From Saprospiraceae bacterium (GTDB taxonomy: Bacteria; Bacteroidota; Bacteroidia; Chitinophagales; Saprospiraceae), in contig JADJGA010000003.1 of assembly GCA_016708265.1 (NCBI GenBank), positions 776,017-840,016 on the forward strand: DNA of 64,000 bases. Direction: 5' to 3'. This document shows, piece after piece, positions 1-46,720 of this stretch. Numbering within the stretch: position 1 is the first letter of the stretch; each line of letters starts with the position of its first letter. The notes beneath the pieces were generated by a model that saw nothing but the letters and a program-made list of their open reading frames with translations, did no database searches and was not told the DNA's origin. A program made the translations under genes and the position numbers.

Positions 1-2
1 TG

Positions 3-242
3 CTTCAGTTCATACAGCATGCTGAGGGTTATGTCAATTATCTGAATGCCGGAGGAGGTAAATACAATTATGTATTTAATTATCTGGATCATCTGGGCAA
101 TGTGAGAGCCAGTTTTGCTAAGGATCCGGCTACTGGTCTTCCCAAAATCCTGAAGGAAAACCATTATTCGGTCGTTGTTGGTGTTTTCACCGACAACAAT
201 CCTGATCTTCACAATAATGCCTATATTTTCAAAAATTTGTAA
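3..242 (+). CDS. C-terminal fragment of an unknown protein (5'-partial; gene continues upstream of the window)
   Basis: Open frame of 80 codons from the window edge to TAA at 240-242; normal amino-acid composition; no start codon inside the window. Confidence 0.35.
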   Translation, partial: LQFIQHAEGYVNYLNAGGGKYNYVFNYLDHLGNVRASFAKDPATGLPKILKENHYSVVVGVFTDNNPDLHNNAYIFKNL

Positions 243-797
243 CAGTTACCAAATACGCTTGTTCAAATTGTAGCTTAAATACTGACATTATTTTCATTGA
301 ATATCATTTACAAAGCAACAACTTATTTTCAATTCTTAACTTGTTTAAAATATAGAAATTCAGTCGTTGTTTGTGTTTTCACCGACAACAAGTCAGTGGC
401 ACAATTTCCTCAATTCATTATGGCAATGCCTATCGATTCATAAACTTGTAACCTTGATGAAATACGCTTGTTTTAAAAAACGCAATAATCATGATAAAGT
501 TATTGATAATTAAAACTTTAATCTTTTTTCTTGTTACTTTTTCTTTTAATCGATCGTAAATACTAAAACGCTGGAAATTTTACCATATTTTTTCATTCTT
601 TAATATTTTGAAAAGCTTTAAAATTCAGTTTCCACAATGAAAAAGTTATTTTCATTATTGAAATGACATGTTTTCAATACTTAAATTCATTATCAAATAA
701 AAAAAATTAAAATTTCTGAAATTTTTTTGAACAATAACTTGTTATATATTATTAATTATTATAATTTTACATTTATTTTACAGACAAAATTATTCCT

Positions 798-2231: not shown

Positions 2232-4184
2232 ATGAGTTATCTCGAATTCGATAAGACAAAGTTAATAAATCTCTCATTTTCATTAAATCAGGAATTGCTC
2301 AGATCGAACAGGAGCGGTTCCTATTCATCTACAACTCTAATATTCTGTAATACAAGAAAATATCATGGCCTTTTAGTGACACCTCAACCGATGATCGATG
2401 ACGAATTGCACGTATTGGTGTCCGGGATTGACCCTACAATCATTCAGCATGATGCAGAATTCCATCTCGGTATTCACAGGTATCCCGGAGGAAAATATTC
2501 TCCGAAAGGGCATAAATATATGCGCGAAATAATAATTGATTCTATCCCCAAGATAGTTTACAGGGTAGGTGGTGTAGTTTTCTCAATAGAAAGTCTTTTT
2601 GCTTCCAGTGCCGACAGAATGCTGATAAAATATACAGTCGAAGAGTGCAATTCCCCGACAACAATAAGACTTCAGCCATTTCTTGCTTTCAGGCAAAGAC
2701 ACAGACTGAGCAAGGCAAATAATTTTATTGACAAGACATTTAAGCCATCTAATAATGGTGTCAATTTCAAATTGTATCAGGGCTATACTCCGGTTCATTT
2801 TCAGTTTTCAAAAAATACTGAATATGTGCACACACCGGACTGGTATTACAATATTGAATATGAAAAAGAAAGAAACCGGGGGTACGATTTCATGGAGGAC
2901 CTTTTTGTTCCCGGATTTTTTGAATTCGGCCTCAAAAAAGGAGAAAGCATAATTCTATCCTTAGGAACTGATGAAATAAACCCTGCAGGATTGTCGAGGA
3001 TGTTCAATAAAGAAAAAGAACTAAGGAAAAAACGCTTCGATTTTAAAAGTTCACTTGAAAATGCTGCAGATCAGTTCATTCAGAGACGTGATGGCAAGAC
3101 TGATATAATTGCCGGATATCCCTGGTTTGGTGTGTGGGGAAGAGATACATTTATTTCATTGCCCGGATTAACTTTGAGTACAGGCAGATTTGACATTGCC
3201 AAAGCTGTTCTGGATACCATGAGCAAAAGACTCAATGGTCCCTTATTCCCGAATGTCGGTACTGACAGTCAGGCTGCATTCAATTCCATTGATGCTCCGC
3301 TGTGGTATTTCTGGGCCGTTCAGCAATATGCCTATGAAACAGGAAATTTAGAAGCAGTCTGGAAAAGCTATGGTTCAAAAATGCTGGCAATACTTGAAGG
3401 ATATAAAAATGGTGCAGAGTACAATATCAAAATGCATGAAAATGGACTGATAAGCGGTGGTATTCAGGGAAAAGCACTAACCTGGATGGATGCTGTAACT
3501 GAGGGCAAAGCAGTTACACCCAGAATAGGTATGCCTGTCGAAATAAATGTGTTGTGGTTCAATGCGATAAGTTTTTATCTTGAGCTGGCTGAAAAATATG
3601 GTAAACAGAAAACCTTGACAGCATGGAAAGAAATACTTGAGAAGATCTCAAAATCATTTACTGAAACTTTCTGGGATGAGAATAAGGGATATCTCGCTGA
3701 TTATGTTGATGGTGAATACAAAAACTGGGATATACGGCCAAATATGATCTTTGCTGCTTCTCTCCCCTATAGTCCTGTTTCGGACTATATCAAGGCTGCA
3801 ATAGTGAATAAGGTAAAGGAGGAATTACTGACAGTCAGAGGCCTGAGAACATTGTCTCCAAGCAATCCCGAATATAAGGGAGTATATGAAGGAGATCAAA
3901 GCACCAGAGATAAAGCTTATCATCAGGGTACAGTATGGCCATGGCTTTTCGGACACTATGCCGAAGCATATCTGAAAATAAGAAAAAAAAGCGGCATTCA
4001 TAAAATGGAATGGTATCTTGAGCAATTTGAACAGACTATGTATGAACACGGTATAGGTACAATTTCAGAAATATTCGACGGTGATCCCCCTCATACTCCA
4101 AGAGGAGCCATATCACAGGCATGGAGTGTAGGTGAAATACTAAGAGTGATGAGTATCATTGAGAAAGTGAAAAGTGAAAAGTGA
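2232..4184 (+). CDS. Glycogen debranching enzyme (amylo-alpha-1,6-glucosidase, GDE_N + GDE_C)
   Basis: 650 aa; GDE_C-type motifs GYPWFGVWGRDTFISLPGL and (alpha/alpha)6 barrel region; syntenic with other alpha-glucan genes. Confidence 0.85.
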   Translation: MSYLEFDKTKLINLSFSLNQELLRSNRSGSYSSTTLIFCNTRKYHGLLVTPQPMIDDELHVLVSGIDPTIIQHDAEFHLGIHRYPGGKYSPKGHKYMREIIIDSIPKIVYRVGGVVFSIESLFASSADRMLIKYTVEECNSPTTIRLQPFLAFRQRHRLSKANNFIDKTFKPSNNGVNFKLYQGYTPVHFQFSKNTEYVHTPDWYYNIEYEKERNRGYDFMEDLFVPGFFEFGLKKGESIILSLGTDEINPAGLSRMFNKEKELRKKRFDFKSSLENAADQFIQRRDGKTDIIAGYPWFGVWGRDTFISLPGLTLSTGRFDIAKAVLDTMSKRLNGPLFPNVGTDSQAAFNSIDAPLWYFWAVQQYAYETGNLEAVWKSYGSKMLAILEGYKNGAEYNIKMHENGLISGGIQGKALTWMDAVTEGKAVTPRIGMPVEINVLWFNAISFYLELAEKYGKQKTLTAWKEILEKISKSFTETFWDENKGYLADYVDGEYKNWDIRPNMIFAASLPYSPVSDYIKAAIVNKVKEELLTVRGLRTLSPSNPEYKGVYEGDQSTRDKAYHQGTVWPWLFGHYAEAYLKIRKKSGIHKMEWYLEQFEQTMYEHGIGTISEIFDGDPPHTPRGAISQAWSVGEILRVMSIIEKVKSEK

Positions 4185-4350
4185 AAAGTGAATAATTGAA
4201 AATTGAAAATTTTGAGGCAAGTTGCAACAGTAGGCAATACAGTGAAGAGTGAAAAGTGAAGAGTGAAAAGTGAAAAGTGAAAAGTGAAAAGTGAAGAGTG
4301 AAGAGTGAAAAGTGAAGAGTGAAAAGTGAAGAGTGAAAAGTGAAGAGTGA
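4156..4350. repeat. Heptanucleotide microsatellite (GTGAARA)n, two blocks (4156-4190 and 4242-4350, about 16 units)
   Basis: Direct reading: gtgaaaagtgaaaagtgaaaag... and gtgaagagtgaaaagtgaagagtg...; overlaps the stop of the debranching enzyme and sits in the spacer to the next gene. Confidence 0.95.
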
Positions 4351-4590
4351 TAAGGTAGTAGACAACTGCAGGCAGAACTTACTGCTCAGTCATAAGTCGG
4401 GATTAAGTATACTTAAAACTGAAGACTGAAAATCTGCTGGGTTTTAACTTATAAATGATAGCTGATAATTGAAAAAATTTAGAAAAAAATAGTTTGCATG
4501 CTGATGAAACAGGAAAAATTTTATTTAAAATCCTGAAATCATCGGGAAGAATTAAAACACTGATCACAGATCACTGAAAAACTGAAAAAT

Positions 4591-5874: not shown

Positions 5875-6044
5875 GGTTTATGAAGGTTAAATTGTTTATG
5901 AGGTTTATAAAGTTTAGAAAGTTTAGAATGTTTAGAAGTAATAGTCAAACTGCAAATGATAATTTACGATCATACCTTTTCACCTTTCAGCCTAAAACTT
6001 TGCAACCATAAAAATAATTAAAAATAAATTAAAAAAATAGTGAT

Positions 6045-7349: not shown

Positions 7350-7395
7350 TGCAGCCGTGACGCAAAAAACTAATCCAAAATGTACTTTTAAGACC
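7350..7395. repeat. Truncated copy of the intergenic repeat family (palindrome-proximal part only)
   Basis: ccgtgacgcaaaaaactaatccaaaatgtactttt aligns with ccgtgacgcactacgcttttccaaaatacaatttt in the full copies. Confidence 0.5.
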
Positions 7396-7427
7396 TGATG
7401 AAAAAACTTACCAGGTTTTGAAAACCC

Positions 7428-7700
7428 CTTGATCGTCACGGTTTGCAACCGTGACGCACTACGCTTTTCCAAAATACAATTTTCCATCACTTACATTGAT
7501 TATCAAATACAAATGTAAATAAATTCTCCTGGCAAATGCAATTTTTATTCTGAATTTTTATGTATCAAGTTTGCAGCAAGAGGACAGAGCTTGTGCCGCA
7601 TCTGCGGTAAGTCCTTTGGTGCGGAGACTGCTCCGTGATAAAGATCTTATCGGTACCATTTAAAACCTTCCAACCCTTCTACCTTCCTACCTTCCAACCC
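7428..7700. repeat. Intergenic repeat, copy 1 (~270 bp; 23-bp perfect palindrome cgtcacggtttgcaaccgtgacg plus conserved GC-rich hairpins)
   Basis: Near-identical to 9667-10000 and 11788-12060 in the same orientation; lies 3' of T9SS gene 7726..9552. Confidence 0.9.
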
Positions 7701-7725
7701 TTTTACCCTCCAACCGTCATACCCA

Positions 7726-9552
7726 CTATTCCATCTTCACCACCTTCTCAGTTTTCATTATTTTATGCCCATCCATAAATACACAAAAATAAAACCCCGA
7801 AGATAGTTGAGACAAATCTACAACGTTCTGCCCGTAGTATAGCCTTTGTGATAAAACCTGCCTGCCTGAAATATCAGTTATTTTTATGTGCCCATTTTCA
7901 GGAATATATTCTCCGAGTGTCACCTGCAGGATATCCTCTATTGGATTTGGGTACAGACTTATATCTATTGCTTTATCCTCAGCAGGTTCATCAGATGCAC
8001 TTGTACTGATATTTATATTCCTGCATATTGTATTGTTGCTGTTTTCATTGCTTACTGTAAGGCAAACATTATAGCTTCCATTTTTCGGAAACCTGTGGTA
8101 TGGATACCTCTCTTCGACCACAGGACTACCATCACCGAAATCCCACCTCCACAGCTCCGGCCTGAAATATGACAGATCTGTAAATTTGATAAGCAGATGA
8201 TCGAGAGTATCAGCCTCATAGCGGAATTTTGCAACCGGATCATTGTCGAGACCGAGAGTATCGCAGGGAGAGTTGTCGAGTGGACCTGTACGATAGTTTG
8301 GGAAATTTGGAATGCCACGAGTTATCCCTGTTGGCATTATCAGTGAATGCTGTTTGACAACACAACTCTCACCTTCATGATATGGATGGTGTATTACACT
8401 CATCATGCGCGTACTGGCAGAACTTGGTGAAATATATATTCTTCCATCAGGTCCAAGTCCTAAAGCACAAAAATTAACAGAATAACCAAGAGGGGCTATG
8501 GTGTCAAATGGAAAGTAGTATTTATACCCATCATAAGTAGCCACCTTAGTTTCACTTGCCAAAACATCTTCTTGTTTCAAATCGTACTGATAAATAAAAT
8601 CCCTGTTGCACATAAACAAATATCTACTGTCATGAGAAAATGATATTCCAAAACCTAATCTGTAATTTGAAAGGTCAACATATTTTAATGCCGGATTGTA
8701 TATCTTTCCTGTGCATCTGTCGAATTTAGCAATAAAATGCTGACCTCCAGTTGAATTGAAGTTTCTGCTCACAAACCAACTAAGCCATTCCCCGTCAGGA
8801 GATCCATATATTTGCCCTATACCTTCTAAACCAGTTAAATCTGTTTCCTGTCTTCCCTGGTAATGTATTCCATCTGGATCTATTAGCCAAATATGGAGTG
8901 TATTTCCTGCTTTACGAGGAGCTATCAGCCACCAGTCCCTGCCATTACCATGTGATATTGCAGTTATACTGCCTGATAGTGAATCCTTAAGCATAACTAT
9001 ATCTTTTTTCAGAATTTTTCCCAGTTTGTCATCATCACTCACTTCAAACATAGCATAACTGATCTGGTATTGAACAAAAAATGGTTCATATCTGCCGAAA
9101 GTTGTATAAAAGGTATAAAATCGATTACTATTACCAGGAACAGGCATTATAATAGCCCCCTGAATTGTTAATAATCCTGATGGAATAGCTAAATTCATAT
9201 CTCCATCATTACAATACTCCCAATCATCACTATAATTGATTGTATCTTCAATTGGGTCATCAAACTGATTATATATAACCTGTCCATTTGTAAATGCAAG
9301 TATTTTTCCCTCACTATTACATAAACTCGAATTAGTAAATGAAAAATCTAAAAATCTATCTGGGGCATAATAAATCTTTGGAGGATCATAATTGAAATCT
9401 ATATTTGAAGCCCCTCTGGTAGTATCTGATGCCCGATCGGGAAGAATTACGTCATAAGGTTCTTGCCCAAATAGCCATATATGATCCTCCTTCTGGCAAA
9501 AAGCAAATATTCTTAAAAATAAAATTATGATAATCACTAAAATTCTTAACAT
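7726..9552 (-). CDS. Secreted protein with T9SS C-terminal sorting domain (paralog family A; NGRDWWLI motif)
   Basis: Signal peptide; C-terminal ~80 aa with the LYPNP...GFYF...KVVK pattern typical of Por/T9SS CTDs; paralogous to 26366..27892. Confidence 0.7.
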   Translation of the reverse strand: MLRILVIIIILFLRIFAFCQKEDHIWLFGQEPYDVILPDRASDTTRGASNIDFNYDPPKIYYAPDRFLDFSFTNSSLCNSEGKILAFTNGQVIYNQFDDPIEDTINYSDDWEYCNDGDMNLAIPSGLLTIQGAIIMPVPGNSNRFYTFYTTFGRYEPFFVQYQISYAMFEVSDDDKLGKILKKDIVMLKDSLSGSITAISHGNGRDWWLIAPRKAGNTLHIWLIDPDGIHYQGRQETDLTGLEGIGQIYGSPDGEWLSWFVSRNFNSTGGQHFIAKFDRCTGKIYNPALKYVDLSNYRLGFGISFSHDSRYLFMCNRDFIYQYDLKQEDVLASETKVATYDGYKYYFPFDTIAPLGYSVNFCALGLGPDGRIYISPSSASTRMMSVIHHPYHEGESCVVKQHSLIMPTGITRGIPNFPNYRTGPLDNSPCDTLGLDNDPVAKFRYEADTLDHLLIKFTDLSYFRPELWRWDFGDGSPVVEERYPYHRFPKNGSYNVCLTVSNENSNNTICRNINISTSASDEPAEDKAIDISLYPNPIEDILQVTLGEYIPENGHIKITDISGRQVLSQRLYYGQNVVDLSQLSSGFYFCVFMDGHKIMKTEKVVKME

Positions 9553-9666
9553 AAAATAGTTTTTTAAAAACTCAGACCTGTCAAAAAAAGTTAAACAGGC
9601 CTGAGTAAATGATTAAATTTCATCATTTGATCAAAATAAGCTTAGTAGAAGAAACGATTCTTTTTA

Positions 9667-10000
9667 CTTGATCGTCACGGTTTAAAACTGTGACGCACTA
9701 CGCTTTTCCAAAATAAAATTTTCCATCACTTACATTGATTATCAAATACAAATGTAAATAAATTCTCCTGGCAAATGCAATTTTTATTCTGAATTTTTAT
9801 GTATCAAGTTTGCAGCAAGAGGACAGAGCCTGTGCCGCATCTGCGGTAAGTCCTTTGCTGCGGAGAATGCTCTGTGATAAATCCCGAACAATTGTCGGGA
9901 CTGACCTCTTATCACAATGGCACTGCATTCCTTTGCTGCAAAGTACCGCTCCGTGATAAAGATCTTATCGGTACCATTTAAAACCATCCAACCCTGATAC
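9667..10000. repeat. Intergenic repeat, copy 2 (~330 bp; carries an ~80-bp internal insertion/duplication including a TCCCGAACAATTGTCGGGA hairpin)
   Basis: Aligns with copies 1 and 3; extra segment 9880-9960 is absent from the other copies. Confidence 0.9.
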
Positions 10001-10005
10001 CTTTC

Positions 10006-10043
10006 TATCTTAGTAAATCGTAATTCGTAATTGAAAATTCGTA
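10006..10043. repeat. Short tandem repeat (CGTAATTC-like units)
   Basis: aatcgtaattcgtaattgaaaattcgtaattcaaaacc read directly. Confidence 0.7.
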
Positions 10044-10052
10044 ATTCAAAAC

Positions 10053-11663
10053 CTACCTTCCCTTCACAAACTTCCCACTCCGCATTCTCCCCCCATCATC
10101 AACCCTCGACACAATATAAACCCCGGGGCTGAAATCATGCAACTGCACTATATAGGTATGATCTTTCAGATTGCCCGACCATTTTCTGATTGCGTTGCCT
10201 TTGATATCAGCAATTGTATATTTTGATTCTCCGCCTTTGTCATCATAAATAAATAGGACATCTGAAGATGGATTGGGATAGATGAGAAGTTCATTTTGTG
10301 ATGTTTCTTCTGTGACACTCACTGTATCACCATTCTGACAGCCGGGTACGAGGCAGCCGTACTGATCGACCTTGAGGAGCCAGGTTGGAGCCCAACCTAT
10401 GGAATCATCTGGCATAGGTGCAAATCTGAGAGTGCCATACATATAATATCCTCCATCAGGAGAATATATGATATCATTGAGTTCATGATTTGGTGATTGT
10501 TCCGGATTGCTGACCAGGCTATATGACCTTAACCACTGTCTTTCTCCATCTTCATTTATTTTTTCCAGTATGCCTACTGTCATCAAGGCTATTCCGTTTT
10601 GCCACAATGAATCTATTTCTTTTTCTGTCAGGTTGTAGGCATAATTCACCTGGTATCCTGCTAGTAAATATCCATCTTGCTGCTGTGTCTCAATGATATT
10701 TGTTGATTTATAGTAATAGTCAATTTCAAAATCCAGACTCCAGGGTTTTTCCCAAATTTGTACAAAGTTTTTATTAAGTTTAAATACTCGTAGTCTTATT
10801 TTAGGATAAAAGTTATTTGGATCGGTTTTTTGATAGTGTTTACCATAATGAGAAGTGCATATATATTCCCCAAGCTTTGTCTTAAATAATTTAAATATAG
10901 GACCTCTCATACTATCAGTCCTGTGAACAATTTTAAAATTGCCTGCTAGATCAACCTCATAAATTATTCCTTCGATATTTCTCTTTATATATTGTCCAAT
11001 TATGAAGGGAGGATCTAAATATCCTGTACCCACTAAAAAACTGCTTCCTGTCCAATGCAAAAATGTCGGACTGTCAGATATATCTTTCTTGCCGAATATC
11101 ACATATTTTACACTATCTGTTTTGATGTTTATAATACATATCTGAGAATCTGCATATTGTGAATTCAGTGATTCCTGAATGGTCAATAAGACGGCATATA
11201 TGCTATCATTTATTTTGATCATGTCATGTAAAAATGCTGTGTCATCAGTTTGACTTATAAAAGGAATTTTTTTTAATATTTCTCCAGTCCCTATTCTATA
11301 AATCATCAGGTAACCGTTGGCATTTTTATTGCCATTACTATCAATACAAACCAATAAGGAGTCATTTTGAACAAAAGCATTATTAGTTTGATTATAAACA
11401 TTTAAGCGCTGAGGCTCTATATCAATATATCTTTTAAGGAAATTTCCATTTAAGTCAATTTTCGACATAAATACAGCATAGTAGTCAAAAGTATCATGAT
11501 CCACACCATTGCCTAAACATAGTAAGGTATCATGAAATAAAATAATCGGCCCTGACTGGTTTATATGTTTCATTATATCAATACCTTTATTGAATGTCGT
11601 TTGTGATACCAGGAAAATATTTATACTAAAAAATAAAATAAATAACAGAAATAAATTTTTCAT
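10053..11663 (-). CDS. Secreted beta-propeller-like protein with T9SS C-terminal sorting domain (family B)
   Basis: Signal peptide; C-terminus LIYPNPSSDVLFIY...GVYIVSRV...KFVKGR is a canonical T9SS CTD. Confidence 0.7.
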   Translation of the reverse strand: MKNLFLLFILFFSINIFLVSQTTFNKGIDIMKHINQSGPIILFHDTLLCLGNGVDHDTFDYYAVFMSKIDLNGNFLKRYIDIEPQRLNVYNQTNNAFVQNDSLLVCIDSNGNKNANGYLMIYRIGTGEILKKIPFISQTDDTAFLHDMIKINDSIYAVLLTIQESLNSQYADSQICIINIKTDSVKYVIFGKKDISDSPTFLHWTGSSFLVGTGYLDPPFIIGQYIKRNIEGIIYEVDLAGNFKIVHRTDSMRGPIFKLFKTKLGEYICTSHYGKHYQKTDPNNFYPKIRLRVFKLNKNFVQIWEKPWSLDFEIDYYYKSTNIIETQQQDGYLLAGYQVNYAYNLTEKEIDSLWQNGIALMTVGILEKINEDGERQWLRSYSLVSNPEQSPNHELNDIIYSPDGGYYMYGTLRFAPMPDDSIGWAPTWLLKVDQYGCLVPGCQNGDTVSVTEETSQNELLIYPNPSSDVLFIYDDKGGESKYTIADIKGNAIRKWSGNLKDHTYIVQLHDFSPGVYIVSRVDDGGRMRSGKFVKGR

Positions 11664-11787
11664 AGTTTTGATGGTAAAAAACAGGCTCTGCCTGATTAAT
11701 GACAGAGCCTGAAATTAAATAATTATTCCACTATAAGTTTTCCACTATATACTTTTCCTGATCTGTCAGTAGCATGATACATGAACC

Positions 11788-12060
11788 CTTGACCGTCACG
11801 GTTTGCAACCGTGAAGCAATACGCTCTTCTCAAATGAAATTTTCCCTTCACAATCATTGATTATCAAATACAAATGTAAACGATTTTTCCGGCAAATGTA
11901 ATTTTTATTCTGAGTTTTTATCTATCAAACTTGCAGCAAGAGGACAGAGCCTGTGCCGCATCTGCGGTAAGTCATTTGCAGCGGAGTCCTGCTCCGTGAT
12001 AAAGGTCTTACCGGCACCATTTAAAACCTTCCCACCCTTCTACCTTCCAACCCTTCTACC
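11788..12060. repeat. Intergenic repeat, copy 3 (~270 bp)
   Basis: Aligns with copies 1 and 2 (cttgaccgtcacggtttgcaaccgtgaagc...ccatttaaaacc ttcccacccttctacc). Confidence 0.9.
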
Positions 12061-12272
12061 ATCCTGCCTTCTCTGTTACCTTGCCACCTTTTACGCTCCA
12101 AATTCACACCTTTTCACAAACTTTCTTTTCATCACTATTCAGTATTTTTCAATCTTACCATCCTTTTTTGGCAAAAAGTCTGATAAAATTCCTATTTTTG
12201 CGGTTTTTTATAATCAGTGACCAGTTTTTACATTATTGGCCATGTGTAATTGAATAATTTAAACAGTAATTT

Positions 12273-26063: not shown

Positions 26064-26100
26064 ATTAAATGCTTTTTTGAAAATAATAATAACATCCAGA

Positions 26101-26185
26101 CCGGCACGGTAATGCCCTTGGCTTTTTAAATTTGTAACCGTGACGAAATACACTTATATTTTATGATGTTTTCCATATAGACAAG
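26101..26185. repeat. Diverged partial copy of the T9SS-associated intergenic repeat
   Basis: tttgtaaccgtgacgaaatacacttatattttatgatgttttccat parallels caaccgtgacgcactacgcttttccaaaatacaattttccat; lies 3' of paralog gene 26366..27892. Confidence 0.5.
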
Positions 26186-26365: not shown

Positions 26366-27892
26366 CTATTTTAGTTTTACCACTTTCGCACTATAAAAAA
26401 TCCTTTCCGTCGATTTATCAGGATAAAATTCAATAAAATAGCTCCCATTGGAATGATCGGAAATATCAATATCTACTTCAGGTATTATATTGCTTAGGTC
26501 TTTCTGAAGAACCAACTGTCCTTCTAAATTTAAAACCACCAGTTTGCCGGGACCCGTATCAGGTAGTCTAACATTGAATATGCCCGATGATGGATTTGGA
26601 AAAACCTTTAAATCCCTGCGATACCAAACAGCGTCACCGAACAATGATGTGATGGTCGGGTCGCATATCTCAGCTTCATCGATGCGGAAGTGAGGGAAGT
26701 TGGGTATGCAATTGTTGAAATTAACTTGTGGTAATTTCAACGAATGCTGACGGAAATCACAAGCTTTGCCTTTTTCATCTGGTTTGTTAATAACATGAAG
26801 ACAAGTATTTGTTCCTGATGACACAATATAGATCTTACAGTCTGGACCCAATTGTGCCTGACCAAATTTACTCCAAAAAAAAGAAGGATCAGGAAATGAG
26901 TCAATATGCGCTATATGCTCCAGAGAGCCAGGTAAATCGTCTGCCCACAGATCGACCTGAAAAAGATCAAAGTCATTTGACAGATACACAAATCTGGAAT
27001 TTGGGGATACTGCCACACCATAGAATATTCCGCTGTCCTGTGGCATCACTCTTATGAGATTGCTAAGCAAGCCAGTCTCCCTGTCAAAATCAAAAATCAT
27101 GCATTGATCTACTGCCCCATTTGTGATCCATTTTTTACCATCTGGAGTAAAAGCGGACTGACCTAATCTTGGAACAAATTTTGGAACTTCATCGATGCGT
27201 TGAGAATCAACACTAAAACCGGTTTTCTTTAACAATATTTTGAAATAAGTATTTGTTTCTTGTGTCATCTGTATAAGCCACCAATCCCTGCCATTAATAT
27301 GCTTACATGCCGACAAGTAACCTCCTACTAAATTTGAAGTTCTGAATATTGTCTTATCCTTTTTAATTACCTTTCCTCGACCATTGTTTTGGTTCATATC
27401 TATGTAGCTGAAATACAATTCAGGTATGCTAACATGTACATATGGCGTAGCTTCAAGCTCCTGTCTTTTATGAATAAGATAATATCCATTTTTACCATCT
27501 GAAATATTCCCCGGATCGGGTAGGACTATTGAATTTTGAGTACCAGGATACCATCCCCATGGTTTACAATACTTATCCCATGTTTTACCATAATTGATAC
27601 TGTCACCATTTTCCATAAGTTGAAAAGAGCTATCCATTACAAGGCATCCATTGGAACTGAACAATAAATTACCTCCCACATCACTGATCTGGGCATTATG
27701 GTTAGCAAAAGTATCATAAAAATCGGCTGTATCAATCTTGCCTTTATTGTTGAAATCTATGATAACACCTTTGACTACATTTTTTTTTACAATATTGCAA
27801 CCAAATAACCACTTATAATCATTTTTGCTTTGGGAAAATGTTACAAAACAAAAAAAAATAATAAATAAAAAAGATAAAACTAATTTGTACAT
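26366..27892 (-). CDS. Secreted protein with T9SS C-terminal sorting domain (paralog of 7726..9552)
   Basis: Shared motifs INGRDWWLIQ, IYI.SS, RQHSL, IPNFP; C-terminus VFPNPSSGIFNV...GSYFIEF...AKVVKLK. Confidence 0.7.
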   Translation of the reverse strand: MYKLVLSFLFIIFFCFVTFSQSKNDYKWLFGCNIVKKNVVKGVIIDFNNKGKIDTADFYDTFANHNAQISDVGGNLLFSSNGCLVMDSSFQLMENGDSINYGKTWDKYCKPWGWYPGTQNSIVLPDPGNISDGKNGYYLIHKRQELEATPYVHVSIPELYFSYIDMNQNNGRGKVIKKDKTIFRTSNLVGGYLSACKHINGRDWWLIQMTQETNTYFKILLKKTGFSVDSQRIDEVPKFVPRLGQSAFTPDGKKWITNGAVDQCMIFDFDRETGLLSNLIRVMPQDSGIFYGVAVSPNSRFVYLSNDFDLFQVDLWADDLPGSLEHIAHIDSFPDPSFFWSKFGQAQLGPDCKIYIVSSGTNTCLHVINKPDEKGKACDFRQHSLKLPQVNFNNCIPNFPHFRIDEAEICDPTITSLFGDAVWYRRDLKVFPNPSSGIFNVRLPDTGPGKLVVLNLEGQLVLQKDLSNIIPEVDIDISDHSNGSYFIEFYPDKSTERIFYSAKVVKLK

Positions 27893-42844: not shown

Positions 42845-43264
42845 ATGGAAAACAGACTTAAAGTTCTTATCCTTTGTACAGGAAATTCATGCAGGAGCCA
42901 GATGGCACACGGATTTTTACAATCTTTTAATAGAAATCTTGATGTTCATTCTGCCGGCACTAAAGCATCAGGTTATATTAATGAAAAAGCGATAGTTGTG
43001 ATGAAAGAAGTCGGAATTGATATCAGTACTCATACATCTGATCCTGTTGAAAAGTATCTGAATGAAGAATGGGATTATGTGATCACTGTGTGTGGAGGTG
43101 CTAATGAAGAATGTCCAGTTTTCCATGGAATAGTTAAGAACAGGCTTCACATGGGATTTGATGACCCCAGCCATGCAATTGGAACTGAAGAATTTATCTG
43201 GAGTGAATTCCGGAGAGTAAGAGATAAGATTTGGAAGGAATTTGCTAATTTGCTAATTTGCTAA
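42845..43264 (+). CDS. arsC: Arsenate reductase, LMW-PTP family (thioredoxin-coupled ArsC)
   Basis: KVLILCTGNSCRSQMA P-loop (CX5R) at the N-terminus; 139 aa. Confidence 0.85.
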   Translation: MENRLKVLILCTGNSCRSQMAHGFLQSFNRNLDVHSAGTKASGYINEKAIVVMKEVGIDISTHTSDPVEKYLNEEWDYVITVCGGANEECPVFHGIVKNRLHMGFDDPSHAIGTEEFIWSEFRRVRDKIWKEFANLLIC

Positions 43265-43365
43265 TTTGAAAATGTACTAATATGAGAATTAGATAATGTG
43301 TTAATTTGGTATTTTGCTAATTAACTATTTCTCACATTTGCTAATTTGTTAATTAATATAAGGTA
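43245..43365. repeat. AATTTGCTAATT tandem array and relatives (left flank of a four-helix-bundle gene)
   Basis: gaatttgctaatttgctaatttgctaatttgaaaatg...tttctcacatttgctaatttgttaatt. Confidence 0.85.
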
Positions 43366-43368
43366 AAT

Positions 43369-43656
43369 ATGTTGGATGAAAAGGGAAATGTGATTGTTGA
43401 AAAAAGCTTTGGATTTGCTTTACGAATTATTGAGTTTACAGAATTACTTGAAAGTCAGAGAAAATATGTTATTGCAAATCAATTATTGAAAAGTGGGACT
43501 TCAATTGGTGCAAATATCAGAGAAGCACAGAATGCTGAAAGCAAAGCTGATTTCATACACAAAATGAAAATTGCTGGTAAAGAAGCCGATGAAACTGAAT
43601 ATTGGTTACTACTATGTAAATTTTCAAAAACTCATCCATTCGATGAAAACATATAG
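43369..43656 (+). CDS. Four-helix-bundle protein (TIGR02436; '23S rRNA intervening-sequence protein' family)
   Basis: Family-typical FGFALRII.F...ANQLLKSGTSIGANI.EAQ...S..DFIHKM.IA.KEA.ET.YWL. Confidence 0.8.
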   Translation: MLDEKGNVIVEKSFGFALRIIEFTELLESQRKYVIANQLLKSGTSIGANIREAQNAESKADFIHKMKIAGKEADETEYWLLLCKFSKTHPFDENI

Positions 43657-43689
43657 AATGATTTAAGTGAAATAAAGAAAATACTTAAT

Positions 43690-43885
43690 AAAATAATCGC
43701 ATCTTCAAAAAAGAGAATGTGAAAATGTGAGAATTCGAGAATGTGAGAATTCGAGAATGATTGAATGTGTCCCGAAAGCTTTCGGGATCGAGAATGTGAC
43801 AATGTGGTAATTTGCTAATTAATAAATTCTCACATTTACAAATTAATTTGCTAATTAACTAATTTGCTAATTAACTAAATAAAAA
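43690..43885. repeat. GAGAATGTGAGAATTC / AATTTGCTAATTAAC repeat arrays plus TCCCGAAAGCTTTCGGGA hairpin (right flank of a four-helix-bundle gene)
   Basis: Read directly; hairpin at 43770-43787. Confidence 0.85.
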
Positions 43886-43888
43886 ACT

Positions 43889-44925
43889 ATGCCATCTCAA
43901 AAAAAATTAAAATTTCTGGACAGATATCTTACTTTGTGGATATTCTTAGCCATGTTTGCAGGAGTATTTTTGGGCTGGTTAAGTCCTGACATTGCCGGAT
44001 TCTGGAATAAACTTTCATCTGGTACTACAAATATACCGATTGCAATCGGTTTGATAGTGATGATGTATCCACCACTCGCAAAAGTCAAATATGAAGAACT
44101 TGGAGATGTTTTTAGAAACACTAAAATCCTGGGATTATCTCTGGTACAGAACTGGATAATCGGACCAATTCTTATGTTTCTCCTTGCTATTGTATTTTTA
44201 CGTTTTAATGTAGATTACATGTATGGCCTGATTCTTATCGGGTTGGCCCGGTGCATTGCAATGGTAATAGTTTGGAATGATCTTGCTAAAGGTGACACAG
44301 AATATGCTGCCGGACTTGTAGCATTTAATTCAATATTTCAGGTTTTGTTTTTTTCTGTTTATGCTTACATTTTTATTGCTGTTTTGCCCGGTTGGTTTGG
44401 ATTGCCTGTAAATGATGTGGTTGCAAATATTACAATCGGACAGATAGCTGAGAGTGTTTTTATTTATCTGGGCATTCCCTTTATAGCAGGATTTTGACAA
44501 GATATTTATTGGTTAAAGCAAAAGGAAAGGATTGGTATAATAAAAAATTCATTCCTGCAATCAGTCCGCTTACTCTATATGCATTGCTTTTCACAATATT
44601 CGTGATGTTCTCACTCAAAGGTGAACTCATAGTAAAAATACCATTTGATGTTATCAGAATTGCTATTCCTCTTATAATTTATTTTGTATGTATGTTTGTA
44701 TTATCTTTCTTATGAGTAAAAGATTCGGGGCGAATTACAAACAATCAACAACTCTGTCTTTACAGCTGCCAGCAATAATTTCGAACTTGCAATAGCGGTG
44801 GCAATTTCAGTTTTGGCATTAATTCAGGTGAAGCATTTACTGCTGTGATCGGCCCTTTGGTTGAGGTGCCTGTGATGATAGCTTTGGTCAGTCTTGCATT
44901 TTGGTTTAAGAGAAAGCTGTTTTAA
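43889..44925 (+). pseudogene. acr3: ACR3-family arsenite efflux transporter, split into three frames (shifts near 44495 and 44715)
   Basis: N-terminus [13 protein letters not shown]...[14 protein letters not shown] and C-terminus ...[26 protein letters not shown] are ACR3 hallmarks; ORFs 43889..44497, 44494..44715 and the 44716-44925 frame are contiguous. Confidence 0.7.
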
Positions 44926-44942
44926 TGTGATAATTTGAAAAT

Positions 44943-45318
44943 TTGAAAATGTGCCAATGTGTCATTGAGATAATGTGCCAATTTGAAAATTTGAAAATTA
45001 TAAAAATAATTGAGTTTACAGAAACACTTGAAAATCAAAGAAAATATGTTCTTGCAAATCAATTATTGAAAAGTGGGACTTCAATAGGTGCAAATATCAG
45101 AGGAGCACAGAATGCCGAAAGCAAAGCTGATTTCATACATAAAATGAAAATTGCAGCAAAAGAAGGAGATGAAACTGAATAGTGGTTATTACTATTCAAG
45201 TTTTCAAAAGTACTTCTATTCGATGAAAGCATCCTGAATGAATTGAGTGAAATAAACAAAATACTAAATAAAATAATCGTATCATCAAAAAGAGAATTTG
45301 AGAATGTGTTAATTTGCT
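44943..45318 (+). pseudogene. Second, degenerate four-helix-bundle gene copy (in-frame stop after ...KEGDETE, then frame change)
   Basis: IEFTETLENQRKYVLANQLLKSGTSIGANIRGAQNAESKADFIHKMKIAAKEGDETE* ~90% identical to 43369..43656; flanked by the same repeat types (44925-45000, 45290-45375). Confidence 0.7.
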
Positions 45319-45376
45319 AATTATCACATTTGCTAATTTGCTAATTCTCACATTGGCTAATTAACTAATTAATAAT

Positions 45377-46720
45377 ATGGAAACAAAAAAAGAACTAAAA
45401 ATCCTGGTCTGGATTGGAATAATATTTGGTGCAGCATTCTTTTTACCTATTGAAAGTGCAAGGTTTAACACTGCAATTGCTGCAACATTGGATCTTGTGA
45501 AATGGTATGCCCGTGAGCATGTGATTTTATGCTTATTACCTGCTTTTTTTTTATTGCAGGGTTATCTCGGTATTTGTGAGTCAGGGTTCAATTTTGAGAT
45601 ACTTTGGAGCAAACGCAAAAAAATGGCTGGCTTACACAGTTGCTGCCAGCTCAGGAACTATTCTGGCAGTATGCAGTTGCACTATTTTGCCATTGTTCTC
45701 AAGCATTCACAAGAGAGGAGCAGGATTAGGACCGGCTATTGCCTTTCTATATTCTGGTCCCGCAATAAATATACTTGCCATCATTTTAACGGCAAGGATA
45801 CTCGGATTGCAAATGGGTATAGCCAGGACTATTGGTGCTGTATCTTTCAGTGTAATAATCGGATTGATAATGGCATTTATTTACCGAAAAGAAGAGAAAG
45901 TTAAAAAGGAAGAACAGATGAACATTCAGTTACCTGCTGAAAAGCGTCCGATGTGGCAAACTTCATTTCACTTTTTACACTTGTTTTGATACTTGTATTT
46001 GCAAACTGGGGAAAGCCATCCATAGATGACACATCAAGTGCCTGGTATTATTTATGGGCATACAAATGGTACATTACCGGATTTTTTTCATTGATGCTAG
46101 GCTTTTCACTAATTTATGTGCTAAAAATAAAATGGCAGTGGGTTTTGATGGCAGCATTTGCGACAATTGCTTCAGCGATATTAGCAACAAATCTTATTGA
46201 AAACTCAAAACTGGCACCACTTTTTCCGATGATGGTTGGGATAGCAGGTTTGAGTATTATTACGCTTTTGGACAAACAGGATGATGAAAACCGGGAATGG
46301 ACAATTTCAACCTGGGGTTTTGCAAAGCAAATTCTGCCATTGCTGGCAATAGGAGTTGTAACAGCCGGATTCCTGCTAGGATCAACACATGATGGTCAAA
46401 CAATTGCCGGAGTGATACCAAATGAATGGATACAATGGCTTGTGGGTGGCAATTCAGTTTTTTCCAATTTATTTGCATCAGTTGTCGGGGCATTTATGTA
46501 TTTTGCAACCCTTACAGAAGTTCCCATTCTTCAGGGGCTGATTGCATCCGGTATGGGAAAAGGCCCTGCTTTGGCTTTATTACTTGCCGGCCCATCACTT
46601 TCCCTTCCAAATATGCTTGTTATACAAAATGTTTTGGGAACTCAGAAGACAGTTGTTTATGTGACCCTGGTAGTGGCAATGGCAACAATTTCAGGTATGT
46701 TTACGGATGGCTATAACTAA
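45377..46720 (+). pseudogene. ArsP-like / DUF318 permease, split into three frames (shift at T10 run ~45545 and at T5 ~45985)
   Basis: Hallmark ILAVCSCTILPLF (TxCSC motif) in the second frame; N-terminal and C-terminal halves are permease-like TM segments in adjacent frames. Confidence 0.6.

What the first reader, a model, noticed from the sequence alone, without database searches (positions are those of the whole stretch)
7350..12060. A ~270-330 bp palindrome-bearing repeat brackets each of two T9SS cargo genes inserted in the middle of a glycogen gene cluster
Three full same-orientation copies (7428-7700, 9667-10000, 11788-12060) plus a stub (7350-7395) sit 3' and 5' of the unrelated T9SS genes 7726..9552 and 10053..11663. 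A diverged stub (26101-26185) follows the paralog 26366..27892. All copies share the 23-bp perfect palindrome cgtcacggtttgcaaccgtgacg, the hairpin ccgcatctgcgg, and a long-range pair acagagc...gctc(c/t)gt with apparent compensatory variation. The short ORF inside the repeat is not conserved between copies, so the signal is at the RNA/DNA level. Reading the minus strand, the element ends ~110-130 nt before the start codons of both T9SS genes. That spacing is compatible with a shared 5' leader or regulatory RNA, or alternatively a cassette-boundary element. The repeats plus T9SS genes split an otherwise contiguous alpha-glucan cluster (GDE, GT, GH57 | GT3-GT35 fusion).
Basis: seen in the sequence. 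Interest (0 to 1): 0.7.

Follow-up and report, generated by a model that had tools for sequence, protein, structure and literature searches.

The report
Duplicated promoter spacer between T9SS genes
A roughly 270-bp stretch repeated around two secreted-protein genes of a Saprospiraceae bacterium is most likely their shared promoter-and-leader region, copied by local duplication in a fast-changing gene array, and not a new RNA class or mobile element.

Summary
The repeat is real. Three same-orientation copies (7428-7700; 9667-10011 with a 79-nt insertion; 11788-12070; 87-96% identical) bracket two unrelated T9SS-cargo genes of a Saprospiraceae MAG. A fourth full copy lies at the orthologous site in a related contig (L017, 89%).

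The repeat is composite. The gene-proximal ~100 nt carry, on the genes' strand, an invariant Bacteroidota -7 promoter box (TACATTTG), an 11-bp palindrome at the predicted start site, and the 23-bp hairpin. This core also precedes gene-1 orthologs in other contigs and survives as decayed relics elsewhere in the window. The distal ~140 nt include a 48-nt near-invariant block at about -66 to -113. They occur only in the four full copies, and their role is unknown.

No helix shows compensatory change (0 of 26 pairs). There is no Rfam match, conserved ORF, TIR/TSD, transposase or integrase. Copy 3 and the L017 copy are fused at the hairpin foot to truncated T9SS-CTD coding sequence, so gene 2's "leader" is a gene remnant plus its terminator.

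Best reading: a duplicated promoter/leader spacer of a recombining T9SS gene array. Relatives do not support an ancestral contiguous glycogen cluster. This is an ordinary kind of feature, of modest interest.

The parts
7428..7700 (-). Repeat copy 1, a 'solo' copy. It lies downstream of T9SS gene 1, and no gene follows it on its strand.
   Evidence: 96% identical to copy 2
9667..10011 (-). Repeat copy 2, between gene 2 and gene 1. It contains a copy-specific 79-nt insertion (9866-9945), which is a partial internal duplication with its own hairpin.
11788..12070 (-). Repeat copy 3, upstream of gene 2. It is the ortholog of the copy in L017:3554-3834.
   Evidence: 88.9% to L017, 87.6% to copy 1
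7494..7520 (-). Promoter block of copy 1: -7 box TACATTTG (7510-7517) followed by the palindrome TTGATAATCAA. The predicted start site is near 7505. The same block lies at 9733-9759 and 11855-11881.
   Evidence: consensus from PMC9723704
7434..7456 (.). 23-bp palindrome/hairpin followed by GATCAAG, the gene-proximal end of the repeat. It also occurs at 9673-9695 (3 changes) and 11794-11816 (1 change).
   Evidence: 90% identical over 63 nt to L015:325-387
7571..7618 (.). 'Block A': 48 nt with only 2 variable positions in 4 copies from 2 species, at about -66 to -113 from the predicted start site. It also lies at 9810-9857 and 11931-11978. Function unknown.
7726..9552 (-). T9SS cargo gene 1 (PKD + Por_Secre_tail; MBK7094192.1).
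10053..11663 (-). T9SS cargo gene 2 (Por_Secre_tail; MBK7094193.1). It is unrelated to gene 1 outside the CTD.
11723..11785 (-). Remnant of the last ~20 codons (..YHATDRSGKVYSGKLIVE*) of a lost upstream T9SS gene, fused directly to the hairpin end of copy 3.
11682..11711 (-). GC-rich hairpin plus U6, ending 18 nt before the gene 2 ATG. It is the terminator of the lost upstream gene and is conserved after ORF1 in L017.
9571..9605 (-). 11-bp hairpin plus U5, ending 18 nt before the gene 1 ATG. Its 3' arm and tail are conserved in L008.
7350..7389 (-). Decayed relic of the core module (long-loop form).
26099..26176 (-). Decayed relic of the core module (long-loop form), downstream of the gene-1 paralog 26366..27892.
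199..547 (-). Two tandem decayed core modules (about 199-347 and 415-547). A promoter-block-only relic lies at about 661-716. All sit next to a truncated Rhs ORF.
   Evidence: (D7)

Best explanation
The repeat is the non-coding spacer of a small, recombining array of T9SS-cargo genes. It has been copied by local segmental duplication or gene conversion, and it works as a portable regulatory region.

Proposed mechanism:
- The gene-proximal core carries a sigma-A-type promoter (-7 box TACATTTG). An 11-bp palindrome (TTGATAATCAA) sits at the predicted start site and could serve as an operator. The transcript would start about 45 nt before the 23-bp hairpin.
- The resulting 5' leader is 190-200 nt long.
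- The leader ends in a GC-rich hairpin plus U-run 18 nt before the ATG.
- The distal half, including the 48-nt near-invariant block at about -66 to -113, is most simply an upstream binding region for a regulator of that promoter.
- This core is the native upstream region of gene 1, because it is conserved before gene-1 orthologs.
- A copy fused to the stump of a lost T9SS gene now supplies the only recognisable promoter for gene 2.
- A third copy after gene 1 is a solo left by duplication and deletion.
- The palindrome foot (GATCAAG) is the recurrent breakpoint.

Shown: the copies, their cross-species conservation above the neutral level, conservation of the -7 box, and the fusions to truncated coding sequence.

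Inferred: promoter activity, the start site, any operator or activator site, the role of the leader, and the duplication mechanism.
For: Copies and orthology:
- Three copies lie in the window and a fourth at the orthologous site after the gene-2 ortholog in L017.
- Copy 3 groups with L017, and copy 1 with copy 2.

Constraint:
- Copy 3 vs L017 is 88.9% identical over 244 nt. The adjacent gene 2 is 83% identical overall and 70% at 4-fold sites.
- The hairpin module is 90% identical between copy 1 and L015, where gene 1's 4-fold sites are 46% identical.

Promoter:
- TAnnTTTG is invariant in five aligned upstream regions from several contigs.
- The box lies within 150 nt upstream of 13 of 36 window genes, against 12% expected. 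It is the described Bacteroidota sigma-A -7 box (PMC9723704).
- The only same-strand boxes upstream of gene 1 and gene 2 are those inside copies 2 and 3.
- The core precedes gene-1 orthologs in L008 and L015/L016.

Duplication and fusion:
- In L017 the hairpin end abuts a duplicated CTD fragment. In the window it abuts the same CTD about 50 codons further in, followed by that gene's terminator.

Array dynamics:
- Gene-1 orthologs sit in a different genomic context in each of the loci fetched (L008, L011, L015).
- Another Saprospiraceae has five tandem paralogs with identical spacers.

Leader folding:
- The predicted leaders fold better than shuffled sequence: z = -4.3, -2.5, -2.2 and -2.7.

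No mobile-element genes:
- None of the 29 window ORFs scanned against Pfam (the main ORFs across all 64 kb) is a transposase or integrase.
Against: - There are no transcript data.
- The leaders would be 190-200 nt, far longer than the 24-32 nt medians reported for Bacteroidota.
- For gene 2 the leader runs through a terminator-like hairpin.
- At least five core modules (copy 1, 7350, 26099, and two at 199-547) have no gene downstream, so a promoter role does not explain why they are there.
- The near-invariance of block A has no demonstrated reason. 26 nt of it recur exactly in an unrelated Burkholderiales MAG.
- Only 64 kb of the source genome and a few short related contigs could be examined, so genome-wide distribution is unknown.
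Confidence: 0.5

Rival explanations
1. A non-autonomous mobile element (MITE- or REP-like) with a hairpin end and an outward-facing promoter. It inserts at or into T9SS gene ends and causes adjacent deletions. The copies would then be independent insertions, not duplications.
For: - The core module is dispersed: at least 8 sites in the first 27 kb of the window, plus related contigs.
- It exists in two forms, short-loop and long-loop.
- Its hairpin end abuts truncated coding sequence three times: a CTD in the window, a CTD in L017, and an Rhs core at about 170.
- It is much more conserved than neutral sites between species.
- All window copies point the same way.
Against: - There are no terminal inverted repeats and no target-site duplication common to the copies.
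- The distal boundary fades into low-complexity sequence native to the genes' 3' flanks.
- No transposase was found among the ORFs scanned across the 64 kb window.
- No exact 21-41-nt match was found in GTDB representatives, apart from two short matches in unrelated organisms, and none in JGI metagenomes, viral contigs, plasmids or phages.
- The full element is seen only in one orthologous array.
- The same-orientation argument rests on only three independent loci.
Confidence: 0.2
2. A structured cis-regulatory RNA (riboswitch- or attenuator-like leader) shared by T9SS cargo genes. The helices in the repeat would sense a signal and control read-through of the hairpin before the ATG.
For: - The leaders are long and fold well below shuffled sequence.
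- A terminator-like hairpin lies 10-20 nt before the ATG in every ortholog examined.
- Two one-sided substitutions give G-U on the genes' strand but A-C on the other strand.
Against: - 0 of 26 proposed pairs change on both sides, and 3 of the 4 variant cells break a pair. RNAalifold's covariation term is +0.81.
- The proposed acagagc/gctccgt helix lies upstream of the predicted start site.
- The sequences after the hairpin are unrelated between genes 1 and 2. The gene 2 sequence is a gene remnant.
- No Rfam family scores better than E about 0.9.
- The third T9SS paralog has no such upstream region.
Confidence: 0.1
3. A small RNA or antisense RNA made from the opposite (+) strand. It would start at block A and run into the 3' (CTD-coding) end of the adjacent T9SS gene.
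For: - A near-consensus -7 box lies about 5 nt before block A on the + strand: CAAGTTTG in copies 1 and 2, TAAGCTTG in L017.
- An invariant 5' block followed by a variable stretch resembles a seed region.
Against: - The box is imperfect in every copy and weakest in copy 3 (CAAACTTG).
- There is no exact + strand TAnnTTTG in any copy.
- There is no terminator on that strand.
- Copy 3 would not be antisense to any T9SS gene.
Confidence: 0.07
4. A site-specific recombination site marking gene cassettes (integron- or VCR-like). It would allow T9SS cargo genes to be excised, inserted or swapped.
For: - Direct repeats with a palindrome bracket unrelated genes in the same orientation.
- Junctions fall at the palindrome foot.
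- The gene pair sits in a different genomic context in each locus fetched from relatives.
Against: - No integrase or other recombinase was found among the ORFs scanned across the window.
- By inspection, no RYYYAAC/GTTRRRY core sites flank the palindrome.
- The repeat is longer than typical attC sites and carries its own promoter.
- The palindrome is symmetric, without the extrahelical bases that give attC its strand choice (my own knowledge of attC).
Confidence: 0.05

Closest known systems
Bacteroidota sigma-A promoters (-7 box TAnnTTTG) with long structured 5' UTRs, as mapped in Flavobacterium psychrophilum and Bacteroides thetaiotaomicron (PMC9723704, PMC7366714)
   Same: - There is an exact, conserved TAnnTTTG on the coding strand upstream of both genes.
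- The predicted leader folds stably.
- The same motif is about 3-fold enriched upstream of other genes in the window.
   Different: - The leader would be 190-200 nt, against a median of 24-32 nt.
- The promoter sits inside a repeat that also occurs where no gene follows.
- No start site has been mapped.
Promoter- or hairpin-bearing intergenic repeats such as Neisseria Correia elements, enterobacterial ERIC/IRU and REP sequences (from my own knowledge)
   Same: - Short non-coding repeats with a strong hairpin lie between genes.
- Some copies supply promoters or alter transcript stability.
- Decayed relics are scattered nearby.
   Different: - There are no terminal inverted repeats or target duplications.
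- The copy number seen is low, and the full element is confined to one gene array.
- No associated transposase (RAYT or other) was seen.
Vibrio cholerae repeats (VCR) / integron attC arrays (from my own knowledge)
   Same: Near-identical palindrome-bearing repeats bracket unrelated, co-oriented genes.
   Different: - No integrase, no attC core sites and no extrahelical-base asymmetry.
- The repeat carries a promoter, whereas integron cassettes are usually promoterless.
- Only three copies are present.
Tandem arrays of T9SS cargo paralogs with homogenised spacers, for example L018 here and the 17 tandem LRR proteins of F. psychrophilum mentioned in PMC9723704
   Same: The same protein family (gene 1) forms tandem arrays with identical spacers in another Saprospiraceae. 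Duplication and gene conversion are evidently frequent at such loci.
   Different: - Here the bracketed genes are not paralogs of each other.
- The spacers are 270-345 nt, not 42 nt, and contain conserved blocks.

Membership tests
Bacteroidota sigma-A promoter | -7 box TAnnTTTG on the coding strand upstream of the gene | tested here: met
   TACATTTG lies at 7510-7517, 9749-9756 and 11871-11878 on the minus strand. The TA and TTTG positions are invariant in five aligned upstream regions.
Bacteroidota sigma-A promoter | -33 TTTG element at the usual spacing, and a mapped transcription start | tested here: inconclusive
   A TTTG lies 14-15 nt upstream of the box. This is shorter than the spacing I recall (about 19-21 nt), read. 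Start-site mapping is not possible with these tools.
Structured cis-regulatory RNA / Rfam family | Match to a curated covariance model | tested here: not met
   Only a tRNA elsewhere passes at gathering threshold. The best E-values in the repeats are about 0.9-2, to unrelated eukaryotic or viral families.
Structured cis-regulatory RNA / Rfam family | Helices supported by compensatory substitutions | tested here: not met
   0 of 26 pairs change on both sides. Shuffle and slide controls give no signal beyond sequence identity. With only 4 similar sequences, the power of this test is low.
MITE | Terminal inverted repeats at both ends | tested here: not met
   The only inverted repeats are internal hairpins. 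A 10-nt match at the ends of copy 1 is absent from copies 2 and 3 and from L017.
MITE | Target-site duplication flanking each copy | tested here: not met
   Flanks differ and share no duplicated short repeat across copies.
MITE | Many dispersed copies at unrelated sites | tested here: inconclusive
   The core module is dispersed within 27 kb. The full element occurs only in the T9SS array and its ortholog. The source genome beyond the window could not be fetched.
REP / RAYT or IS200-IS605-derived PATE | Associated Y1 transposase; similar subterminal hairpins at both ends | tested here: not met
   No transposase was found among the 29 ORFs scanned across the 64 kb window. The distal end has no hairpin resembling the 23-bp palindrome. 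The rest of the genome was not testable.
Integron attC / VCR | Tyrosine integrase with attI nearby; R''/R' core sites RYYYAAC...GTTRRRY | tested here: not met
   No integrase was found among the ORFs scanned across the window. Core sites were not seen on inspecting. No attC covariance model was available to run.
Intrinsic terminator (hairpins before the start codons) | GC-rich stem followed directly by a U-run | tested here: met
   11711-11682: 11 pairs plus TTTTTT. 9605-9571: 11 pairs, an 11-13-nt loop, then TTTTT; read, folded. Its loop is too long for the scanner.
Protein-coding small ORF | ORF conserved in frame, with synonymous-biased change | tested here: not met
   ORFs differ in frame and length between copies. 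In the one ORF shared by copy 3 and L017 (31 codons), 7 of the 8 differing sense codons change the amino acid (codon count done by hand).

The most novel reading that the evidence does not exclude
The 270-bp module could be a Saprospiraceae-specific control-and-exchange unit for T9SS cargo genes. In this reading, block A and the palindrome are recognition sites for a dedicated regulator or recombinase. That protein would co-regulate the cargo genes placed behind the module and also promote their duplication, loss and replacement. This would amount to an integron-like cassette system without a canonical integrase.
Probability: 0.1. Interest if true: 0.7.

Novelty: new member of a known kind. 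Interest (0 to 1): 0.3.

Why it matters
If the reading is right, the locus shows how a fast-evolving array of secreted proteins keeps newly juxtaposed genes expressed: a ready-made promoter/leader spacer is carried along with each duplication. It also shows that a gene's apparent "leader" can be the stump and terminator of a lost neighbour.

The locus also yields a conserved non-coding block of unknown function (block A) next to T9SS cargo genes, whose regulation is poorly understood outside Porphyromonas and Flavobacterium.

None of this overturns current understanding. The main value is correct annotation and a testable candidate regulatory site.

Tried and rejected
- **Rfam.** Searches at gathering and at E<=10 found nothing relevant.
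- **Public collection scans for the element.**
  - A 21-mer of block A in GTDB representatives hit only a Burkholderiales MAG and a Treponema MAG. The similarity there is confined to 22-26 nt.
  - A 41-mer and a degenerate palindrome pattern gave no match in JGI metagenomes.
  - Three viral-contig scans gave no match.
  - BLASTN against plasmids and phages gave nothing, or chance-level hits at E>=0.3.
- **Fetching more of the source genome.** Exact-protein look-up failed four times.
- **Coding potential.** Rejected.
- **ECF-sigma or sigma-54 promoter in block A or the hairpin motif.** I considered this by eye and rejected it because the spacings do not fit. This is inference from remembered consensus sequences, not a tool result.
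- **A decayed copy of gene 1's leader hairpin after copy 1.** The local alignment is not significant; 89 of 500 shuffles score at least as high.
- **Foreign origin by composition.** GC content shows no anomaly.
- **IS200/IS605-type ends (TTGAT target, hairpins at both ends).** Considered because TTGAT precedes the hairpin on the + strand. Rejected for lack of a matching second hairpin and of any TnpA or TnpB.
- **Resemblance of the promoter block to a Fur box.** By hand, 13-14 of 19 positions match the E. coli consensus. I judged this too weak in AT-rich DNA to claim.

Full report
**1. Observation**

The window holds three same-orientation copies of a repeat at 7428-7700, 9667-10011 and 11788-12070.
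- Copy 1 vs copy 2 is 96.3% identical over 215 nt. After a 79-nt copy-2-specific insertion (9866-9945), identity is 88% over a further 83 nt.
- Copy 1 vs copy 3 is 86.6% over 276 nt.
- The ORFs between them, 7726..9552 and 10053..11663 (both minus strand), each carry a Por_Secre_tail domain. Gene 1 also has a PKD domain.
- The two genes are alike only in that C-terminal domain.
- 26366..27892 is a 29%-identical paralog of gene 1.
- The flanking ORFs are GDE, a GT4/GT5 glycosyltransferase and GH57 on one side, and a GlgA-GlgP fusion on the other.
- The source is a Saprospiraceae MAG: genes 1 and 2 are 100% identical to MBK7094192.1 and MBK7094193.1 on an 841-kb contig.

Several details of the finding fail.
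- The 23-bp palindrome is perfect only in copy 1.
- The stubs do not contain the ccgcatctgcgg hairpin or the long-range pair.
- The "compensatory" C/T difference is one-sided.

**2. Relatives**

The exact proteins of the source genome could not be looked up. I therefore fetched loci around homologs.

*GH57 side.*
- The closest relatives (88-76% aa) keep SPOR-SRAP-GDE-GT-GH57.
- They continue with a PIF1 helicase (L003) or a sulfatase (L004-L006), not the GlgA-GlgP fusion. They contain no copy of the repeat.
- The T9SS pair is therefore specific to this genome at this site. The idea of an ancestral contiguous glucan cluster split by an insertion is not supported by the relatives available.

*Gene 1 orthologs.*
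- They lie in a different context each time (L008 75% aa, L015/L016 76%, L011 68%).
- In L015/L016 a gene-2-like gene lies directly upstream, as in the window.

*Gene 2 ortholog.*
- The contig L017 carries a gene-2 ortholog (81.5% aa) and holds a fourth full copy of the repeat (L017:3554-3834).
- That copy sits at the orthologous place, directly after the gene.

**3. Anatomy (read on the genes' strand)**

The four-way alignment shows islands of complete identity separated by variable stretches. The repeat is composite.

*Proximal core, about 100 nt.*
- It starts with GTTTACATTTGTATTTGATAATCAATG. This contains an exact Bacteroidota sigma-A -7 box, TAnnTTTG, followed by the 11-bp palindrome TTGATAATCAA.
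- About 45 nt further on comes AAGCGTAnTnCGTCACGGTTGCAAACCGTGACGATCAAG, the 23-bp hairpin.
- This core, without the distal part, also precedes the gene-1 orthologs in L008 and L015/L016. The TA and TTTG positions are invariant in all five aligned upstream regions.
- Decayed versions lie at 7350-7389, 26099-26176, about 199-347, about 415-547 and (promoter block only) about 661-716.
- The module has two forms. The short form has the 23-bp palindrome. The long form has about 21 more nucleotides, including GGCATTACC, in the loop.
- In the relics the stem has decayed by uncompensated changes.

*Distal part, about 140 nt.*
- It occurs only in the four full copies (nhmmer).
- It contains "block A", CAAAKGACTTACCGCAGATGCGGCACARGCTCTGTCCTCTTGCTGCAA, with two variable positions in 48.
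- Taking the -7 box as positions -12 to -5 (PMC9723704), block A spans about -66 to -113.

*Distal boundary.* It merges into purine-rich low-complexity tracts. These are native 3' flanks of the T9SS genes, because they are also present after the orthologs in L008 and L017.

**4. Constraint**

- Copy 3 and the L017 copy share derived characters and are orthologous. They are 88.9% identical over 244 nt. The adjacent gene 2 is 83% identical overall and 70% at 4-fold degenerate sites.
- The hairpin module is 90% identical over 63 nt between copy 1 and L015, where gene 1's 4-fold sites are 46% identical.
- The repeat is therefore under purifying selection, or has spread recently.
- Copies 1 and 2 (96%) are recent duplicates or have been homogenised.

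**5. RNA structure**

- Four cells vary: three break the pair and one gives G-U.
- RNAalifold's covariation term is +0.81 kcal/mol.
- In L017 the acagagc/gctccgt helix is broken by a G-to-T change.
- Whole-copy folds are unremarkable: z = -0.57 on the genes' strand and -1.30 on the other.
- No Rfam model matches.
- No ORF is conserved in frame. In the only ORF shared by copy 3 and L017, nearly all changes are non-synonymous.
- With four similar sequences, this is absence of evidence for structure, not evidence against it. The specific claim of compensatory variation is wrong.

**6. Promoter reading**

- In this window an exact TAnnTTTG lies within 150 nt upstream of 13 of 36 genes, against 12% expected from its density. 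The consensus therefore applies to this organism.
- The only same-strand boxes between the gene 2 stop and the gene 1 ATG, and between gene 2 and the divergent glgA-glgP gene, are those inside copies 2 and 3. They lie 197 and 207 nt from the start codons.
- The predicted leaders fold more stably than shuffled sequence. For gene 1, z = -4.3 with 0 of 200 shuffles as good. For gene 2, z = -2.5. For L008, z = -2.2. For L015, z = -2.7. The stability comes mostly from the palindrome and from a GC-rich hairpin plus U-run 10-20 nt before the ATG.

**7. What lies between the repeat and gene 2**

- Alignment with L017 shows that 11785-11723 are the last ~20 codons (..YHATDRSGKVYSGKLIVE*) of a T9SS gene that is intact upstream of gene 2 in L017.
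- The hairpin 11711-11682 is that gene's terminator.
- In L017 the repeat's hairpin end is joined to a second copy of the same CTD about 50 codons earlier (NGEFEV...). That copy is followed by the same terminator and a second gene-2 paralog.
- The hairpin foot (GATCAAG) has thus been a junction to truncated coding sequence at least twice, at different points. The window's gene 2 now has no other upstream region than copy 3.
- A third such junction may exist at the window start, where an Rhs core ORF stops being Rhs-like next to decayed modules.

**8. Interpretation**

The most economical account is a regulatory spacer: promoter, possible operator, hairpin-bearing leader and an upstream conserved block.
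- It belongs natively to gene 1.
- It has been multiplied by segmental duplication and gene conversion within a T9SS cargo array, with the palindrome as a preferred breakpoint.
- Such arrays are demonstrably dynamic. Gene-1 family members form five tandem paralogs with identical 42-nt spacers in another Saprospiraceae. A gene-2 paralog fragment lies just outside the window on the same contig.

This account explains the bracketing, the grouping of copies, the fusions and the conserved -7 box.

It does not explain why block A is nearly invariant, or why solo modules persist. A role as an upstream activator site is inference only.

The main rival is a MITE- or REP-like element with an outward promoter.
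- In its favour are the dispersal of the core and the repeated truncation of neighbouring genes.
- Against it, I found no terminal inverted repeats, no common target duplication and no transposase among the 29 ORFs scanned across the 64 kb window.
- Also against it, no copies turned up in any public collection scanned.

The integron-like and + strand sRNA readings have little support.

**9. Limits**

- Only 64 kb of the source genome and short related contigs were available.
- The copy number and genome-wide neighbourhood of the element remain unknown.

**10. Verdict**

This is a real, conserved, lineage-restricted intergenic repeat.
- The regulatory (promoter/leader) reading is partly supported for its proximal third.
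- The RNA-covariation claim and the "split glycogen cluster" claim are not supported.
- It is a new instance of a known kind of feature, with one unexplained conserved block.
- Interest: 0.3.

Noticed in passing
window 1-235 and 172-200 / 362-392: The window opens in the 3' part of an Rhs/YD core ORF (..YNYVFNYLDHLGNVR..KENHY). It stops being Rhs-like where YPFG would be expected. At that point there is a hairpin GTCGTTGTTGGTGTTTTCACCGACAAC, which recurs 190 nt later. Each hairpin is followed by a decayed core module.
   Followed up: partly
window 4164-4354, 7664-7724, 10013-10051, 12026-12064, 43239-43354, 44924-44998, 45295-45371: Low-complexity tandem tracts with a 7-8-nt period (for example AAAGTGA x25 and AATTTGCT x14) sit just 3' of many stop codons. 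The tracts after genes 1 and 2 are conserved in position in L008 and L017. This looks like a lineage-wide feature of intergenic DNA.
   Followed up: no
L001:2917-2942 (Burkholderiales MAG JBBQNW010000037.1) and L002:5915-5936 (Treponema MAG): 26 nt of block A (AGGACTTACCGCAGATGCGGCACAGG) recur exactly in an AT-rich intergenic spacer of an unrelated Burkholderiales MAG, and 22 nt recur in a Treponema contig. Similarity does not extend further. A 26-mer match is unlikely by chance under uniform composition.
   Followed up: partly
window 9571-9605, 11682-11711; L008 ~9942-9985; L011 ~5945-5990; L017 ~1865-1895 and ~4060-4095: Every gene-1 or gene-2 ortholog examined has a GC-rich hairpin plus U-run ending 10-20 nt before its ATG. 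This leaves no room for a promoter after the hairpin, so these T9SS genes must be transcribed through a terminator-like structure.
   Followed up: partly
L018:2357-11869 (ENA ERZ28496113 ctg27316): Another Saprospiraceae carries five tandem 622-aa paralogs of gene 1 (83-95% nt identity) with identical 42-nt spacers. They lie downstream of a 1215-aa beta-helix T9SS gene. The same big-gene-then-gene-1 order is seen in L011.
   Followed up: partly
L017:3767-4054 and window 11723-11857 (minus strand): An ATG inside the promoter block opens an ORF that reads through the palindrome in frame into the truncated T9SS CTD, in both species (95 aa in L017, 44 aa in the window). This is probably accidental. 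The N-terminal parts are 14 of 22 identical.
   Followed up: no
window 43425-43711 and 45005-45291: A 287-nt direct repeat (88%) flanks a truncated ACR3/SBF ORF (43889..44497) and precedes an ArsP-like ORF (45953..46720). Dense AATTTGCT-type tracts surround it. This may be a rearranged arsenic-resistance locus.
   Followed up: no
outside the window, same 841-kb contig (MBK7094176.1, IPH57_03600): A 298-aa fragment 73% identical to gene 2 lies about 16 protein accessions before gene 1. That places it a little upstream of the window start, so the T9SS array or its debris extends beyond the window.
   Followed up: no
L011:1-1913: In the 68% relative, a LuxR/GerE-type response regulator and a Reg_prop sensor kinase lie divergently next to the T9SS gene pair. 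They are a candidate class of regulator for these cargo genes.
   Followed up: no
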